A program made the translations under genes and the position numbers. The notes under the pieces are model-generated. The model worked only from the letters and a program-made list of their open reading frames with translations. It searched no databases and was not told where the DNA came from. A stretch of DNA of 25,831 nucleotides, taken from positions 1 through 25,831 of IMG/VR virus record IMGVR_UViG_3300008255_000434; one strand, written 5' to 3'. Below are positions 1,210-7,685 of this stretch, piece by piece. The number at the start of each line of letters is the position of its first letter. Position 1 is the first letter of the stretch. Source of the stretch: a virus (taxonomy: Duplodnaviria; Caudoviricetes).

Positions 1210-2702
1210 TGGCAAGGACGCACGCCGACAGCACGTTGAAGCGTTTCGTTGATGCGCTTGACGCGGCGACTCGCGCATCGAATTACGACCGTCTTCACGA
1301 GTTCGGTTGGCGTGAGCCATCCCGAGACAACGACGGTGCTTTGCATGATTGGCAGGCCGCGTTTATTGCGTCCGGCTCTGAGTACATGCAGCGTGCGTTG
1401 GTGTGCGCGAACCAAGTTGGCAAGAACTTCTGCGCCGCTTTCGAGGTCGCTTGCCACCTGACCGGTCTTTATCCGCCGTGGTGGGGTGGGCGTCGGTTTT
1501 CTCATGCTGTTGAGTGGACGTGTGCGGCATCTACGCTCAAGACCGTGCGAGATGGCCAGCAGATCGACTTGTTTGGTCGCATGATTCCCGGCGAGTCTAA
1601 GCTTGACGGCACAGGCTGGGTTCCCCGTAACAAGATCGGCGCGTATTCGTTTTACGGAGGCAACGTCAAGAACTGCGTGGACACCTGCTACATCAAGCAT
1701 GTTTCAGGCGGCTGGTCGACTTTGTACCAGCAGGCTTACGAGCAGAAGCAGAAGGCGTTCGAAGGCTACAAGCGAGACGGAGGCTGGTTCGATGAAGAAT
1801 GTCCGATAGACATCTTCAGCGAATTCCTGATGCGTCTGTTTTCTAAGAAGGGCATGTACATCGGCACGCGCACGCCGCTTGACGGCATGACCGAATACAT
1901 CAAGGCATTCGCTCAGCCGCCGGAAGAGACCAGTCGGATTCGCAAGATGATGGTGGCTACGTGGGATCAGGCGTATCACCTGAGCGAAGAATACAAAAAT
2001 GCGTATCTAAATTCGTTCCCTGAGCATGAGCGCGAGACTCGAAGCCGTGGCGTTATAGCTGCCGGCGAGGGGTTGGTATATCCGGTTTCCGAGGACTTCC
2101 TGTTGTGCAAGCCGTTTGCGTTGCCGGACCACTGGCCGCGAATCGCCGGTCACGACTTCGGGTGGGATCATCCCGCATCTACCGTCTGGTGGGCATTCGA
2201 CCCTGATGGCGCCGTGAATTACATATACGATTGCTATCGGATCCGAAAGAACGACGCATCCCAACACGCGGCCTCGATAAACCGTCGCGGCAAGTGGATC
2301 CCGGTCGCGTGGCCTCATGACGGCAACAACCACGAAAAGGGATCCGGCGAGCAGCTGGCCAAGACTTACCGCGAAGCCGGCGTGAACATGCTTCACGAAA
2401 GCGCTCGGTTCGAGGGCGCTTCTGGTGGCACGCAGTCGGTATCAGCCGGTTGCTATGAGATCCTCAGCGCGATGCGCGAGGGCCGGATCAAGGTTTTCAG
2501 CCCGCTGATCGAGTGGTTTGAAGAGCGCCGGTTGTACCACCGGAAGGACAACAAGATCGTCAAGTTGAACGACGACATCATGGACGCCATGAGGACGGGC
2601 TGGATGATGCGGCGATACGCGGTTGCCAAGCCGCATAATCTGGATGATCGTAGACGCCGGAAGCCAAGGGACTATAATCCCTACGAGATCATTGGAGGCT
2701 GA
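1209..2702 (+). CDS. terL: Terminase large subunit, P22 gp2-like (ATPase + RNase H-fold nuclease)
   Basis: Walker A 'ANQVGKN', 'E-x-A-x-HLTG-x-YP-x-WW-x-G-x-RF' typical of P22-like TerL, Walker B 'GWFDEE', nuclease motifs 'GHDFGWDHP', 'WPHDG', 'DDIMDAMR'. Confidence 0.95.
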   Translation: MARTHADSTLKRFVDALDAATRASNYDRLHEFGWREPSRDNDGALHDWQAAFIASGSEYMQRALVCANQVGKNFCAAFEVACHLTGLYPPWWGGRRFSHAVEWTCAASTLKTVRDGQQIDLFGRMIPGESKLDGTGWVPRNKIGAYSFYGGNVKNCVDTCYIKHVSGGWSTLYQQAYEQKQKAFEGYKRDGGWFDEECPIDIFSEFLMRLFSKKGMYIGTRTPLDGMTEYIKAFAQPPEETSRIRKMMVATWDQAYHLSEEYKNAYLNSFPEHERETRSRGVIAAGEGLVYPVSEDFLLCKPFALPDHWPRIAGHDFGWDHPASTVWWAFDPDGAVNYIYDCYRIRKNDASQHAASINRRGKWIPVAWPHDGNNHEKGSGEQLAKTYREAGVNMLHESARFEGASGGTQSVSAGCYEILSAMREGRIKVFSPLIEWFEERRLYHRKDNKIVKLNDDIMDAMRTGWMMRRYAVAKPHNLDDRRRRKPRDYNPYEIIGG

Positions 2703-2703
2703 T

Positions 2704-2940
2704 ATGGGCGCATTGGTTCCACTCATTACCGCAGGCGTGTCGATCTTCCAAGCCACGAAAAAGCCCAAGTCGCCCAAGCTCCAAGCGCCGGTCAGTAAGT
2801 CCGCGACAGAGATTCAAGCCGACCAGGACCGATTGCGCCTCGCTCAGGGCCAGCGCCGGGGCCGGTCGTCGACAATCCTTGGCGGCGCCGGATCGGTCGG
2901 CCTTGGAAGCGTCGGCACCAAAACCTTGCTCGGTGAATAA
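2704..2940 (+). CDS. Small virion protein preceding the portal (T7 gp7.3-like position)
   Basis: ATG 2704 with GGAGG at 2694-2698. 'MG' start, K/P-rich segment, 'RRGRSSTIL...KTLLG' ending typical of small pre-portal genes in this phage type. TAATG coupling to portal. Confidence 0.75.
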   Translation: MGALVPLITAGVSIFQATKKPKSPKLQAPVSKSATEIQADQDRLRLAQGQRRGRSSTILGGAGSVGLGSVGTKTLLGE

Positions 2941-4568
2941 TGGCTATTGACCAACTGTTTGTGAAGCGGATCCTCGCACGGCACGAAAAGGCCCTGGCGA
3001 AGCGCCGCGCCATCGAAAGCACTTGGGAAGAAATCAGCCGGTGGATCCAGCCCGAGCGCGAGTTTTTGACTTCCGCGCAGCCGGATACCGCGAAGTGGGC
3101 TCGCCTGTTCGACATGACCGCAGCGCAGTCATGCTACGAAGCCGCTGCTACGGTACATGGACTGATGATGAATCAGGCGACCAAGTGGTTCGACCTTGAG
3201 ATCGCCGACGGCGACGACCTTCGCAACGACCGAGACGTTCAGATCTGGCGCCAAGAAACCGTCCTGGCGATGCTTCGGAAGTTCAATTCGCCCGGCTTCG
3301 GGTTCAACTCCGGCACATTCGAGGGCTTGCTTGACGTGTTCGGCCCAGGCTCGTCGACCATGCTGTTGCGCGGCACAATCGACGGAATGTCGTTTCAGCA
3401 TCGCCCGCTTCGCGATGTCGTGTTCAGCGGCACCGACGGCAAAATCAACGAGGCTTACCGGCGGTTCGACCTTCAGGCGTGGGAACTGGTCGATATGTTC
3501 TCCGGCGATAATGACCAGCTTCACCACAAGGTCACCAGTGCCGCAGGCCGCGAGAACAAGATGGAGCAGGAATTTTGCATGGTCCATGCTGTGGTGCCGG
3601 CGGCAATCGCCCGTCGGCTCGGCGACACCGACCCGATGCCCGAGAGGATGAAATTCTTCGCGTATTACATCGATCGCAACAACAAACATCTTGTTCGTCG
3701 CGGCGGGTTCGACCGGTTCATCTACATCACACCAAGGATCGAACGCTCGGCAAACGGCATCGAGGGACGAGGGCCGTCGTGGCGCGCGCTGCCGATGGCT
3801 CGCTTGCTAAACACGATGGAAAAGGTCGGGCTGCTTGGGTTTGAGAAATCCGTGATGCCGCCGCTCAACGTGCCCGCAGGCATGACCGACGGGCTCCCGC
3901 ACCTGTACCCCAACGGGCTGAACTTCTTCAAAGAGGGGCAGCGAGACTTTATCACGCCGATTCAGACAGCCAACAATATTCCGCTATACGAACAGGGGCT
4001 TATCCGTCGACAAGAGTTCGTACGCCGACAGTACATGCTCCACGTCTTGCAGGCGCCAAACAAGACACACCTGTCGCAGGATCAAGTCAATGCGATGCTC
4101 CGGCAGCGGCTTGAGATCCTGAGCCCGTGGCTTTCGCCGATCACCGAAGACATGCTCGGCCCGATCATCCATGAGACGTTCGAGAACATGACCGATCTGG
4201 GCGAGATCCCGCCGCCGCCCGAGGTGCTTCGTAACCGGTCACTTGAAGTCATCTACACGTCGCCGCTATCCATGAGCCAGCGCGAATCCGAAGTCGATTC
4301 GCTTGCGAAGATGCAGGCCTACGCGTCACCGTTCGTCGATCGGGATCCGACGGTGATGGACAACTTCGATGTCGACGTCGGCATCCGGTACGCTGCGGGG
4401 ACGTTTAATTTTCCTCAAAGATTGCTGCGGCCGGTTGAACAGGTCCGCGAAATCCGGGAGAATCGCGCCGCCCAGATTGCGCAGCAACAGCAGTTGGAGC
4501 AGGCACAAATGGCCGCCAGCGCCGCGAAAGACGGCGCTCAGGCACTCGGATCGGTGAATGCCGCGTAA
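2940..4568 (+). CDS. Portal (head-tail connector) protein, T7 gp8/BPP-1-like family
   Basis: 542 aa. 'W-EI---I-P-R', 'WF-L', 'GRGP---ALP', 'P-PPE-L----L-V-Y-SPL---QR', Q/A-rich C-terminus. Follows the terminase. Confidence 0.92.
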   Translation: MAIDQLFVKRILARHEKALAKRRAIESTWEEISRWIQPEREFLTSAQPDTAKWARLFDMTAAQSCYEAAATVHGLMMNQATKWFDLEIADGDDLRNDRDVQIWRQETVLAMLRKFNSPGFGFNSGTFEGLLDVFGPGSSTMLLRGTIDGMSFQHRPLRDVVFSGTDGKINEAYRRFDLQAWELVDMFSGDNDQLHHKVTSAAGRENKMEQEFCMVHAVVPAAIARRLGDTDPMPERMKFFAYYIDRNNKHLVRRGGFDRFIYITPRIERSANGIEGRGPSWRALPMARLLNTMEKVGLLGFEKSVMPPLNVPAGMTDGLPHLYPNGLNFFKEGQRDFITPIQTANNIPLYEQGLIRRQEFVRRQYMLHVLQAPNKTHLSQDQVNAMLRQRLEILSPWLSPITEDMLGPIIHETFENMTDLGEIPPPPEVLRNRSLEVIYTSPLSMSQRESEVDSLAKMQAYASPFVDRDPTVMDNFDVDVGIRYAAGTFNFPQRLLRPVEQVREIRENRAAQIAQQQQLEQAQMAASAAKDGAQALGSVNAA

Positions 4569-4875
4569 AACAGATCAGCAGACCGTCGAATGCCGAAAGG
4601 CGCTGGCTTGGCGAAAGCTCGTCGAATCGCTTGACGATTCCGAGCGAGACCTGATCCTGACGGATCTTTACGAACTGGGCAGCATCTACGATCCGATGCC
4701 CCTCAAAGACTCCGGTCCGCAGGAGTTCGAGAAGGGCAGGCGGTTCGTGGTGATCAAGATCCTTGAGCGATTGACGTACCCCAAAGACCCCATCGCGGCG
4801 ATGCGTAGAATTGCCGCACACAGGAAGCGATTTGAAGGGCAGGCAGATGATCCAACGATCCTTATCGACGAGTGA
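4558..4875 (+). CDS. Bbp19-like small protein between portal and scaffold
   Basis: 105 aa. 'LILTDL' and 'FEKGRRFVVIKI' match the F-x-EG-x-R-x-V pattern of this family. Conserved position. Confidence 0.7.
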   Translation: MPRKTDQQTVECRKALAWRKLVESLDDSERDLILTDLYELGSIYDPMPLKDSGPQEFEKGRRFVVIKILERLTYPKDPIAAMRRIAAHRKRFEGQADDPTILIDE

Positions 4876-5929
4876 CCCGATCCATGCGCTCGCGCATTAC
4901 AACCCGAAGGCGTGGTCTTCCCCGGTGCATTTCTTCCCCGACGAAGGCGGCGGCGACGGTGCCGGAGGTGGGGCGGGCGACGCTGGCGAAGGTGCAGGAG
5001 AATCACTGCTTGGCGGCGGCGGCGACGGGGGCGATAAAACTACCGATGGCTCCGAGGATCGTGTCGTTGATTCCGACTGGTTCAGTTCACTTCCCGACGA
5101 CCTGAAAGGCGCCAAGTTCCTTGAGCAGATCAAGGACAAGCCCCCGAGCGAGGTCATCGCGAACGTCTCGAAGCGGTTCATCGACACGCAGGCGCTTGTC
5201 GGCAAGAACAAGATCGAGCTTCCCGACGAGGCCGACGCGTCCGACGTGCGGCAGCAGAAGGTCGACGCGATATACAAGGCGCTTGGCGTCCCCGATAATG
5301 CGGCAGACTACGAACTGAAAATCGACGGCCTGCCCGAAGGCTATGCCGTCACCGATGAGCAGTCATCGGAGTTCAAGGAAATATCGCATAAACTGAAGCT
5401 CACTCCGACGCAGACGCAGGCGCTGCTTGAGTGGGACGCGCAGCGGCAGGTCGGGCAGGTTGCGTCGATGAACGAGGCGGCCAAGGCAGAGCGAAACAAG
5501 ACCGAGGAATTCCTTAGGTCAGACGAAGGGTTCGGCCAAGCCTACGACACCAAGCTCAAGAAAGTGAATTTCCTCGTCGGCAAGTACGGGTCGGACGAAC
5601 TGAAGGACGAATTCAACAAGACCGGCGTCGGAAACAACCCGCGCCTTGCGTTGTTCCTGGCACGACTGTCTGACGAGATCCTCGGCGACCAGCGCATCGA
5701 AGGCATGGACCAGTCGGGCGGCGACGTGTTTTCACCGGCCGAAGCGAAGGCCGAATACGGCCGCCTCGTCGCGAAGGACAGCGACCATCCGCTGGCCAAG
5801 GCGCTGCGAAACCAGAGCGATCCCCGACACAAAGAGGCGGTCGAATACCGATCCAAGCTCATTCGCGCCGGTGCGCACCGAGCCAACAAGCCAGTCGCCG
5901 GCGTCGGAACCGGCAACCCCGATCGCTGA
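4847..5929 (+). CDS. Capsid assembly scaffolding protein
   Basis: Probable ATG at 4847. Gly/Asp-rich N-terminus, 'W-SSLPDDLK', 'LGVPD-A-DY', 'LKLTP-Q-Q-L', 'G-GNNP-L---L-RL', 'DPRHK-AV'. Acidic, lies directly before the capsid gene. Confidence 0.85.
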   Translation: MIQRSLSTSDPIHALAHYNPKAWSSPVHFFPDEGGGDGAGGGAGDAGEGAGESLLGGGGDGGDKTTDGSEDRVVDSDWFSSLPDDLKGAKFLEQIKDKPPSEVIANVSKRFIDTQALVGKNKIELPDEADASDVRQQKVDAIYKALGVPDNAADYELKIDGLPEGYAVTDEQSSEFKEISHKLKLTPTQTQALLEWDAQRQVGQVASMNEAAKAERNKTEEFLRSDEGFGQAYDTKLKKVNFLVGKYGSDELKDEFNKTGVGNNPRLALFLARLSDEILGDQRIEGMDQSGGDVFSPAEAKAEYGRLVAKDSDHPLAKALRNQSDPRHKEAVEYRSKLIRAGAHRANKPVAGVGTGNPDR

Positions 5930-5939
5930 TCCCCCCCCC

Positions 5940-5957
5940 CACCCGCTTCGGCGGGTG
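5940..5957 (+). other. Stable cUUCGg hairpin after a C10 tract
   Basis: CACCCGC-TTCG-GCGGGTG, perfect 7-bp stem. Preceded by C10 at 5931-5940. Confidence 0.7.
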
Positions 5958-5963
5958 CCAGCC

Positions 5964-6005
5964 AGCCCGGCAGGGGCCAAATCACCCCTGTCGGGTTTTT
6001 CTTTT
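5964..6005 (+). terminator. Intrinsic terminator between scaffold and major capsid genes
   Basis: CCCGGCAGGGG (5966-5976) pairs with CCCCTGTCGGG (5985-5995; one G-U), followed by TTTTTCTTTT. Confidence 0.85.
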
Positions 6006-6031: not shown

Positions 6032-6060
6032 TTGACGACTTATGTGTCCTTGGCTATTGA
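6032..6060 (+). promoter_or_regulatory. Putative promoter P2 for the capsid cassette
   Basis: TTGACG, 17 nt, TATTGA, just downstream of a terminator. Shares CTTGA-N8-GTGTC-N5-CTATTG with P1. The -10 box lacks the final T. Confidence 0.55.
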
Positions 6061-6066
6061 TTGTGT

Positions 6067-6208
6067 ATCGGACTCCCGTATTCGGCCCGATCGACAGCCG
6101 GAAAGACGGCCGACTGGCCATCGTCATGGCAAGAAGCGCCCGCAACTCTGCGGATTCCGCCTCGAAGCATCAAACCGTAAACGCATGTTTTTTTGCTTGG
6201 AGGCCGTC
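6067..6208 (+). promoter_or_regulatory. Structured 5' leader (candidate cis-regulatory RNA) of the major capsid gene
   Basis: Five consecutive predicted helices: 6067-6091, 6097-6110 (GCCG-GAAAGA-CGGC), 6117-6130 (GCCAT-CGTC-ATGGC), 6136-6160, and 6159-6204, which includes the SD GGAGG. Confidence 0.6.
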
Positions 6209-7102
6209 ATGGCTGAGACACAAGACCAACATTACATCGACAACTTCGAGGCGGGCATCCTTGAGCTTCAGCAGCAAGGCGCATCGAAGACCGAAGGCAC
6301 CTACCGCAACGTCGAGATGAGGGGCGAGCAGACCTACGTCAATCGCATCGCTGCGCTCGACGACAGCGACGAGGGCCTGGAAGACGAGCGCTACGGCAAG
6401 ACGAACTTGATCGAAGCGACTCATAGCCGCCGCCGCCTGGTCGCCACCCCTCGGAGCAAGGCGATTCCGCTGGATGACAACGACAGCGTGCGCATGCTCG
6501 AAGACCCCTCGAACGCTTATTCCAGCGCGATCTCCAAGTGGTTCGCCAGGAAAAAGGACGAGGTTCGTCTTGCGCAGTGGGTTGGCACGGCCTATTCGGG
6601 CAAGGCCGGTGCGACTAGCGTTTCGCTGGGCGCGAGCCAGCAGGTCATCGTGAACCTGTCGGGTTCGAGCGAGGGCCTGACGCTCGACAAACTGATTGAG
6701 GCTCAGAACATCTTTGGCGAAAACAACTTCGACGAAGACGAAACAAAGCATCTGGCCCTTCGTCGCCAGCAAATTTCCGATCTCCTGAAGATCGAGAAAG
6801 CCACCAGCGGCGACTATGTGACCATCCGCGCGCTGGAAAGCGGCAACATCGACGAGTACATGGGATTCATGATGCACCGCACGCAGAAGTGCCCGCACGT
6901 CACGGCGACCGATGTCGCTTCGGCGGTGGCCTGGGTCCAGGACTCGGTGGCCTACGGCGAATACTCCCAAAACATGAAGACCCGCGTCACCGAGCGGGAC
7001 GACCTGAGATACGTCACGCAGATCTACCACCGGGAAGACTTCGGTGCAACGCGACTGCAAGAGGAAGGCGTGGTCGAAATCTTCTGCGACGAAAGCCCGT
7101 AA
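6209..7102 (+). CDS. Major capsid protein (297 aa)
   Basis: ATG 6209 with GGAGG at 6199-6203; the ORF-track start 6032 lies in the promoter. 'QQ--SK', 'RYG-T', 'HSRR', 'D--D-VRML-DP---Y', 'GLT-DKL--A', 'TS-DY', 'G-ID-YMGF', 'GATRL-EE-VV-I-C-E' are typical of this podovirus capsid family. Confidence 0.92.
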   Translation: MAETQDQHYIDNFEAGILELQQQGASKTEGTYRNVEMRGEQTYVNRIAALDDSDEGLEDERYGKTNLIEATHSRRRLVATPRSKAIPLDDNDSVRMLEDPSNAYSSAISKWFARKKDEVRLAQWVGTAYSGKAGATSVSLGASQQVIVNLSGSSEGLTLDKLIEAQNIFGENNFDEDETKHLALRRQQISDLLKIEKATSGDYVTIRALESGNIDEYMGFMMHRTQKCPHVTATDVASAVAWVQDSVAYGEYSQNMKTRVTERDDLRYVTQIYHREDFGATRLQEEGVVEIFCDESP

Positions 7103-7164
7103 GCCCTGGCTTGAGGATTTTAGATAACTGAGCCCCCAGACGGGGCCTTCAAAGAGAGGTTTCC

Positions 7165-7611: not shown

Positions 7612-7650
7612 TGCCAAACAGACCGAACGAGTTGCCTGCTCATCGGCGTG

Positions 7651-7685
7651 GGGGCTGGGTTTTTAACCCGGCCCCTTTTTTCTTT
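7651..7685 (+). terminator. Intrinsic terminator after capsid/cement genes
   Basis: GGGGCTGGGTT (7651-7661) pairs with AACCCGGCCCC (7665-7675; one U-G), followed by TTTTTTCTTT. Confidence 0.85.

What the first reader, a model, noticed from the sequence alone, without database searches (positions are those of the whole stretch)
6067..6211. Candidate RNA switch in the capsid leader: duplicated asymmetric internal loop coupled to an SD-sequestering helix
Seen: helix 1 ATCGG-ACTC-CCG(TATT)CGG-C-CCGAT (6067-6091) and helix 4 GCG-C-CCGCA(ACTC)TGCGG-ATTC-CGC (6136-6160) contain the same 4x1 loop, CGGAYTCC paired to GCCCG, in opposite polarity. Two small hairpins lie between them. GCCTCgAAGCA (6159-6169) pairs with TGCTTgGAGGC (6194-6204) and buries the GGAGG SD. 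Bases 6159-6160 are needed by both helix 4 and this anti-SD helix, so the two compete. Known: P22 scaffold regulates its own synthesis post-transcriptionally. Inference: a dimeric phage protein (scaffold, Bbp19-like or capsid) binds the twin loops and tunes capsid translation to assembly state. This is my best candidate for an undescribed system here. I cannot exclude an existing Rfam family.
Basis: partly seen in the sequence, partly recalled or inferred. Interest (0 to 1): 0.8.

Follow-up and report, generated by a model that had tools for sequence, protein, structure and literature searches.

The report
Twin-loop RNA switch before phage capsid
The DNA in front of this phage's capsid gene encodes a folded RNA with two mirror-image copies of one small loop, kept in many related phages and also found at the start of their scaffold-like genes, so it is likely a docking site through which one protein, probably the scaffold, balances how much shell protein is made.

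Summary
All helices are present at the stated coordinates. The leader belongs to an RNA family with no Rfam match, found before PF19821 (HTVC010P-like) capsid genes. The 4x1-then-1x4 loop pair occurs in 52 of 107 relatives' leaders, against 0 of 107 reverse strands, and in 8 of 30 held-out leaders. A model built without the window finds it at E 3e-8. Loop position 3 is A/A in 65 and U/U in 4 of 69 curated leaders (76 automated calls: 7 discordant), so both loops likely share one reader. The anti-SD helix is conserved in only about a fifth of relatives (16 of 84); there, forming helix 4 frees the SD. The same loop lies in the first codons of the scaffold-like gene in 35 of 114 relatives (null mean 7), but not in this window. 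Best reading: free scaffold activates capsid translation and represses its own. The scan earlier noted a similar layout with a different loop (CC/CUAC) on other DNA.

The parts
4847..5929 (+). Scaffold-like gene (360 aa); candidate reader
   Evidence: phrog_3742 (unknown) and phrog_458 ('protease') hits; homologous ORF before the capsid gene in 88 of 107 relatives tested; all-helical model. 'Scaffold' is inferred from position and fold.
5940..5957 (+). UUCG hairpin just after the scaffold stop
   Evidence: Seen in the sequence; not followed up
5964..6005 (+). Intrinsic terminator-like hairpin plus U tract; would separate scaffold and capsid messages
6032..6060 (+). Predicted promoter TTGACG-17-TATTGA (8 of 12); start near 6066-6068, i.e. 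at helix 1
   Evidence: same register (9-10 nt before the loop strand) in L011, L023, L038, L043, L403. Not found by the stricter scan. Enrichment is weak overall: 13 of 42 vs 6 of 42 controls.
6067..6091 (+). P1: hairpin with 4x1 loop ACUC opposite C (L polarity)
6093..6112 (+). P2: conserved GAC, 4-bp stem and GAAAGA hexaloop
   Evidence: 19 of 108 leaders including the window; pairs covary
6117..6130 (+). P3: variable small hairpin
   Evidence: pairs present; covariation not counted
6133..6163 (+). P4: hairpin with 1x4 loop C opposite AUUC (R polarity); SD-like 5' arm GAAG extends the basal stem to 6163 with one A-C mismatch
   Evidence: an R unit was called in 95 of 108 leaders by a relaxed finder, 9 later judged doubtful
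6159..6204 (+). Anti-SD hairpin (6159-6169 with 6194-6204) burying the SD; mutually exclusive with the base of P4
6199..6203 (+). Shine-Dalgarno GGAGG
6209..7102 (+). Major capsid protein, PF19821 / phrog_3437

Best explanation
The leader is one member of a conserved phage RNA family with two mirror-image copies of a small asymmetric loop, which are likely bound by one phage protein, most probably free scaffold, and binding would stabilise helix 4, pull the anti-SD arm off the ribosome-binding site and switch capsid translation on. Shown by comparison: the fold, the loop consensus (G-R-N-A-V-N opposite N-Y-C, with U-G or C-A facing), the joint change of both loops, the anti-SD helix in a minority of lineages, and the same loop in the first codons of scaffold-like genes of relatives. 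Inferred: that a protein binds, that it is the scaffold, that binding at the scaffold start represses (as in P22) and that binding at the capsid leader activates. Together this would keep scaffold and capsid in balance. Confidence that this is a functional cis-acting RNA is about 0.9; the figure below is for the whole scaffold/ON mechanism.
For: Twin loops in 52 of 107 leaders vs 0, 1 and 0.4 in reverse, CDS and shuffled controls; 8 of 30 held out vs 0 and 0. Units are confined to the 200 nt before the capsid AUG (60 and 64 of 137 loci vs 0-8 in other bins). 13 of 16 pairs show two-sided changes, with 0 of 500 shuffles reaching the score. GNRA caps 37 vs 1 reverse-complement among 135 units. 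A capsid-blind pattern put 59 of 120 hits just upstream of this capsid family. Position 3 is A/A in 65 and U/U in 4 scattered lineages, at least 3 origins on a quick tree; the whole loop is identical in about 18 of 27 lineages vs 2.6 shuffled. Anti-SD pairing in 16 of 84 vs 3 of 84 control segments, about 4.8 of 25 lineages vs 1.25 expected. Clamping P4 lowers RBS opening energy in 10 of 10 such leaders (median 15.3 to 7.9 kcal/mol). Loop at +3..+36 of the scaffold-like ORF in 35 of 114 vs a synonymous null of mean 7, max 13, often as a nested mirror pair. A second blind scan found the loop before scaffold-like genes of another head module and before a phrog_212 capsid gene.
Against: No binding or expression data. 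The window's own scaffold start has no unit, and the scaffold-start site is limited to 10 of 49 lineages. The anti-SD helix is absent or weak in most relatives, including the large marine clade. No scaffold or capsid residue tracks the A-to-U loop change. Positions 1 and 4 often differ between the two loops (23 and 15 of 69), and 7 of 76 uncurated calls disagree at position 3. ViennaRNA favours the OFF fold by about 8 kcal/mol, and the window's RBS stays costly to open even with P1-P4 clamped (14.75 kcal/mol for 6195-6215). Clamping a helix can hardly make opening harder, so the ON direction follows from geometry and is not an independent test. The scaffold model shows no known RNA-binding fold.
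Confidence: 0.47

Rival explanations
1. The twin loops are read by another phage protein (capsid, portal, the 105-aa gene at 4558-4875, or the small RLECL-type protein), or binding represses the capsid gene.
For: Joint loop change needs only a co-evolving reader. A small ORF sits next to or reads through the element in many relatives (35 of 138 loci hit). One blind-scan hit (L558) precedes a short gene of the kind found before scaffolds (resemblance by eye only).
Against: The small protein has no hit in the window below E 0.12 and is missing from 103 of 138 loci within about 2 kb. With capsid as reader, the geometry would give positive feedback on itself and repression of scaffold (inference).
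Confidence: 0.2
2. No ligand: the element is a self-folding RNA module (loop-loop docking, 5'-end protection or standby site), and the anti-SD helix is a fixed damper of translation.
For: It starts at the predicted transcription start in several lineages; GAC and GAAAGA are conserved as for tertiary contacts; the SD switch is missing in most relatives.
Against: The A-to-U change in both loops has no visible compensation in the loops or in GAC/GAAAGA of the window. The loop also occurs in a different arrangement, as nested pairs in scaffold coding starts.
Confidence: 0.16
3. A host RNA-binding protein (ribosomal-protein-like, e.g. S8) reads the loops; joint changes reflect host lineage.
For: The loop resembles the S8 site (G-C pair, pyrimidine, invariant A; PMC4176348 passages) and C-loops (PMC9516175 passages). 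Relatives occur in assemblies of several phyla.
Against: The S8-invariant A is U in both window loops and the long strand has an extra base. The sites are restricted to head-assembly genes.
Confidence: 0.12
4. A DNA-level operator or cruciform rather than an RNA.
For: It lies immediately downstream of a predicted promoter.
Against: Inner stems vary from 2 bp to tens of bases; GNRA caps are strand-biased 37 to 1; the motif is absent on the reverse strand.
Confidence: 0.03

Closest known systems
Translational autoregulation by phage P22 scaffolding protein (gp8)
   Same: A head-assembly protein is proposed to control translation through mRNA; relatives carry the site at the scaffold start. Seen: one passage in bioRxiv 10.1101/2022.12.13.520362 and two reference titles in PMC5529062; the 1985 papers were not read (one was asked for and is not held).
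   Different: Different phage group; a defined, covarying twin-loop RNA; main site before the capsid gene; predicted activation of capsid as well as repression of scaffold.
C-loop RNA motif
   Same: Asymmetric internal loop in a hairpin; if the U-G/C-A pair closes it, a 3-nt long strand starting with C or U (127 of 135). Definition from passages of PMC9516175.
   Different: One closing pair is a wobble or C-A, not Watson-Crick; in the 1x4 reading the first base is always a purine; triads untested.
Ribosomal protein S8 operator (spc mRNA, 16S helix 21)
   Same: Small internal loop with a G-C pair, a pyrimidine and a conserved A, used for translational control (PMC4176348 passages).
   Different: Extra loop base; the A is U in this window; head-gene context.
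Candidate structured RNAs of Fremin et al. 2023 (PMC10690425) upstream of capsid genes
   Same: The paper lists five candidates before PHA00201 capsids and others before other capsid models (passage and supplement file 5).
   Different: None of the listed domains is PF19821, and motif words were not found in files 3-6. The alignments (zip and PDF files) could not be searched, so overlap is not excluded.

Membership tests
Any Rfam 15 family | Score at or above gathering threshold | tested here: not met
   0 hits on the window; 7 weak hits far below threshold at E<=10; 0 on 40 relatives' loci
New twin-loop capsid-leader family (model R1) | Match to a model built from 22 relatives without the window | tested here: met
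   40.7 bits, E 3.4e-8 (rough), next hit 9.6 bits; 13 of 86 and 11 of 30 other loci at E<0.01
New twin-loop capsid-leader family (model R1) | Consensus A at loop position 3 | tested here: not met
   Window has U in both loops, like L383, L403 and L434: a variant
P22-type scaffold autoregulation | Site at the scaffold translation start | tested here: inconclusive
   Present in 35 of 114 relatives, absent in the window
P22-type scaffold autoregulation | Scaffold binds the RNA and changes translation | not testable with these tools
   Needs binding and reporter assays
C-loop | First base of the longer strand often C | tested here: inconclusive
   C 45, U 82, G 8 of 135 in the 3-nt reading; always purine in the 4-nt reading, by construction of the finder
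C-loop | Watson-Crick pairs on both ends | tested here: not met
   One side is U-G (76), C-A (54) or U-A (5) of 135
C-loop | tWH and cWS pairs forming two triads | not testable with these tools
   Needs a 3D structure or probing
S8 operator | Invariant A642-equivalent and loop size | tested here: not met
   U in both window loops; one extra base
Fremin 2023 candidate RNAs | Match to a published alignment | not testable with these tools
   Alignment files unreadable
CC/CUAC scaffold-capsid loop of earlier scan notes | 2x4 loop CC opposite CHAC | tested here: not met
   Loop here is 1x4, Y opposite R-N-A-V; compared with the notes' wording only, not their sequences

The most novel reading that the evidence does not exclude
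A single scaffold-read RNA loop with opposite effects: it represses scaffold translation from inside the first codons and activates capsid translation by capturing an anti-SD arm. This would be a two-way stoichiometry controller for head assembly, present in one of the most abundant marine phage groups including cultured HTVC010P, with RNA and reader co-evolving in lineage-specific codes.
Probability: 0.35. Interest if true: 0.88.

Novelty: new variant of a known kind. Interest (0 to 1): 0.74.

Why it matters
How tailed phages match scaffold to capsid amounts is known mainly from P22 (recalled). This element gives a defined RNA target, natural loop variants for specificity swaps, and cultured carriers (HTVC010P, Ralstonia DU_RP_II, Alteromonas ZP6), so the question becomes directly testable. 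A structural protein acting as a translational activator would be unusual.

Tried and rejected
No close relative of the window was found: best capsid identity 40%, and a pattern for the window's own loop variant gave 120 loci with no capsid hit. No RNA holder was listed for the locus. Capsid S65/Y271 looked linked to the U3 loop but also occurs in A3 lineages and not in the window: rejected. The small RLECL-type ORF as universal reader: rejected. Hammerhead-like wording in some marine leaders: rejected by eye, no GAAA after stem II (recalled core). RNase III site and CsrA site: rejected from memory of their requirements, because inner stems are as short as 2 bp and the GUAG class lacks GGA. 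Scaffold fold searches gave only unnamed phage homologs and weak scaffold hits; the Foldseek search against solved structures was not obtained. A MAFFT alignment of 14 tails was too poor for pair counts. Literature searches returned no paper, 41 returned one, and 79, 95, 100 and 121 listed none on this element (listings only, except papers named).

Full report
Context. The window is a short-tailed phage head and tail module: terminase, portal, a scaffold-like gene (4847-5929), a PF19821/phrog_3437 major capsid gene (6209-7102), and tail and internal virion genes. The closest named capsids are those of HTVC010P-type pelagiphages at about 30% identity; the best relative is 40% identical. Between scaffold stop and capsid start lie a terminator-like hairpin, a weak promoter-like site at 6032-6060 (missed by the stricter scan) and the element.

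Observation. Near-identical twin cores arose in 1 of 1000 shuffles. Energy alone does not give the twin-loop fold: P1 and the base of P4 have probabilities under 0.1, and the anti-SD helix about 1.

Family. I collected leaders of capsid relatives from 8 GenBank phages, 80 viral contigs and 52 genome contigs; 139 leaders including the window were extracted and 108 kept after dereplication. With the loop left free, the commonest loops were U/GUAG, C/ACAA, C/AUAA, U/GCAA, C/AUAC and C/ACAC. The descriptor derived from these found a 4x1 unit followed by a 1x4 unit in 52 of 107 relatives, against 0 on the reverse strand, 1 in coding controls and 0.4 in shuffles; with positions 2-4 free the counts were 56 against 8, 5 and 6. 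In a held-out metagenome set (79 loci, 65 with leaders, 30 non-redundant) 25 had a unit and 8 the pair, against 0 and 0 pairs in controls. On a 22-leader alignment without the window, 13 of 16 pairs had two-sided changes and no shuffle reached the score; the structure was drawn from these sequences and some are related, so this overstates significance. The model built from it found the window at 6065-6176 with E 3.4e-8, but only 13 of 86 and 11 of 30 other loci at E<0.01, because the middle part varies: the GAAAGA hairpin is in 19 of 108 leaders. A capsid-blind pattern put 59 of 120 hits about 60 nt before this capsid family. GNRA caps outnumber their reverse complement 37 to 1, which points to RNA on the + strand.

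One reader. Of 138 leaders, 76 gave automated twin calls; I dropped 7 as miscalls and corrected 3 by eye. In the 69 left, loop position 3 is A in both copies in 65 and U in both in 4 (window, L383, L403, L434); uncurated, 7 of 76 disagree. The four U/U leaders are scattered on a quick capsid tree (4 changes, at least 3 forced; the careful tree did not finish and the window is a long branch). The whole loop is identical in about 18 of 27 lineages against 2.6 in shuffles. Joint change is what a shared, co-evolving reader predicts; this is inference.

The SD switch. After dropping 9 doubtful calls, the arm leaving P4 paired with its own SD region better than 95% of GC-matched cross pairs in 16 of 84 relatives (one with a single comparator), against 3 of 84 for a control segment; per lineage about 4.8 of 25 against 1.25 expected. 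Held out: 3 of 13. Hand-picked examples, HTVC010P among them, fold into SD-burying hairpins with different sequences, while four marine and Pseudomonas examples are weak (22 selected, not a test). The 5' arm of P4 is itself SD-like, so it acts as an anti-anti-SD. Clamping P4 lowered the RBS opening energy in 10 of 10 such leaders at a median cost of 8.4 kcal/mol, and in 20 of 55 others. A ligand that stabilises P4 would therefore activate. In the window the RBS remains fairly structured even then.

Which protein. Earlier scan notes on a different loop prompted a look at scaffold starts. The unit lies at +3..+36 of the scaffold-like ORF in 35 of 114 relatives, against a mean of 7 (max 13) after synonymous resampling and 1-9 in windows further in; about 7 of the 35 are thus expected by chance. 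It occurs in 10 of 49 lineages, often as a nested mirror pair, and includes HTVC010P. The window's scaffold lacks it. A second blind scan gave 123 matches: 37 before this capsid family, 2 rows (one site) before the scaffold family, 24 before other ORFs and 60 with no ORF of 30 residues or more. Among the others were two scaffold-like genes of another head module (a third, L547, resembles L473 by eye), with nested twin loops, and a phrog_212 capsid gene with the full layout. A site inside the first codons would block ribosomes when bound. Repression of scaffold with activation of capsid makes sense if free scaffold is the signal, and P22 scaffold is implicated in translational autoregulation (passage). 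No residue tracked the loop change, and the scaffold model is all-helical with no informative match.

Known families and novelty. No Rfam match on the window or on 40 relatives' loci. C-loop and S8-site features are partly or not met (passages only). The HTVC010P-type genomics paper has no matching passage for the terms searched (PMC8477408). Searches found no paper; Fremin 2023 may hold an overlapping candidate in files I could not read. Earlier scan notes describe the same logic with a CC/CUAC loop in other phages; look-ups by sequence found no note on this family. It works like a scaffold-type translational operator but is not filed under any known family: a new variant of a known kind, interest 0.74.

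Noticed in passing
L002:1203-1379, L030:1719-1955, L135:1684-1899 and others: A 55-85 aa two-helix-like protein family (RLECL-type motif) with no PHROGs hit, lying between scaffold and capsid genes; 35 of 138 loci hit. In the marine clade its ORF reads through the whole RNA element (dual coding).
   Followed up: partly
L473, L475, L547 (minus strand of L473/L475), L500: The same loop, nested or in the full four-helix layout, precedes scaffold-like and capsid genes of other head modules, so the family extends beyond PF19821 phages.
   Followed up: partly
L120-L139 (Pseudomonas and related prophages): Leaders carry two loops in the same (1x4) polarity instead of mirror polarity.
   Followed up: no
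L010, L016, L030, L035 leaders: In the marine clade the conserved GAC appears to pair with GCY after the A-rich linker, which would close a three-way junction around P2 and P3; seen by eye only.
   Followed up: no
capsid alignment, window residues 65 and 271: T/Q switches to S/Y together in 10 relatives, and Q271 is R in others: likely an intra-protein contact.
   Followed up: partly
L098, L109, L117: A tRNA-like T-arm sequence lies just upstream of the capsid promoter.
   Followed up: no
window 2623-2940: A small ORF between terminase and portal, likely starting near 2705, Gly/Ser-rich at its C-terminus; not annotated here.
   Followed up: no
window 7105-7160 and 7640-7685: GC-rich hairpins after the capsid gene and after the 148-aa gene, the second followed by a U tract.
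   Followed up: no
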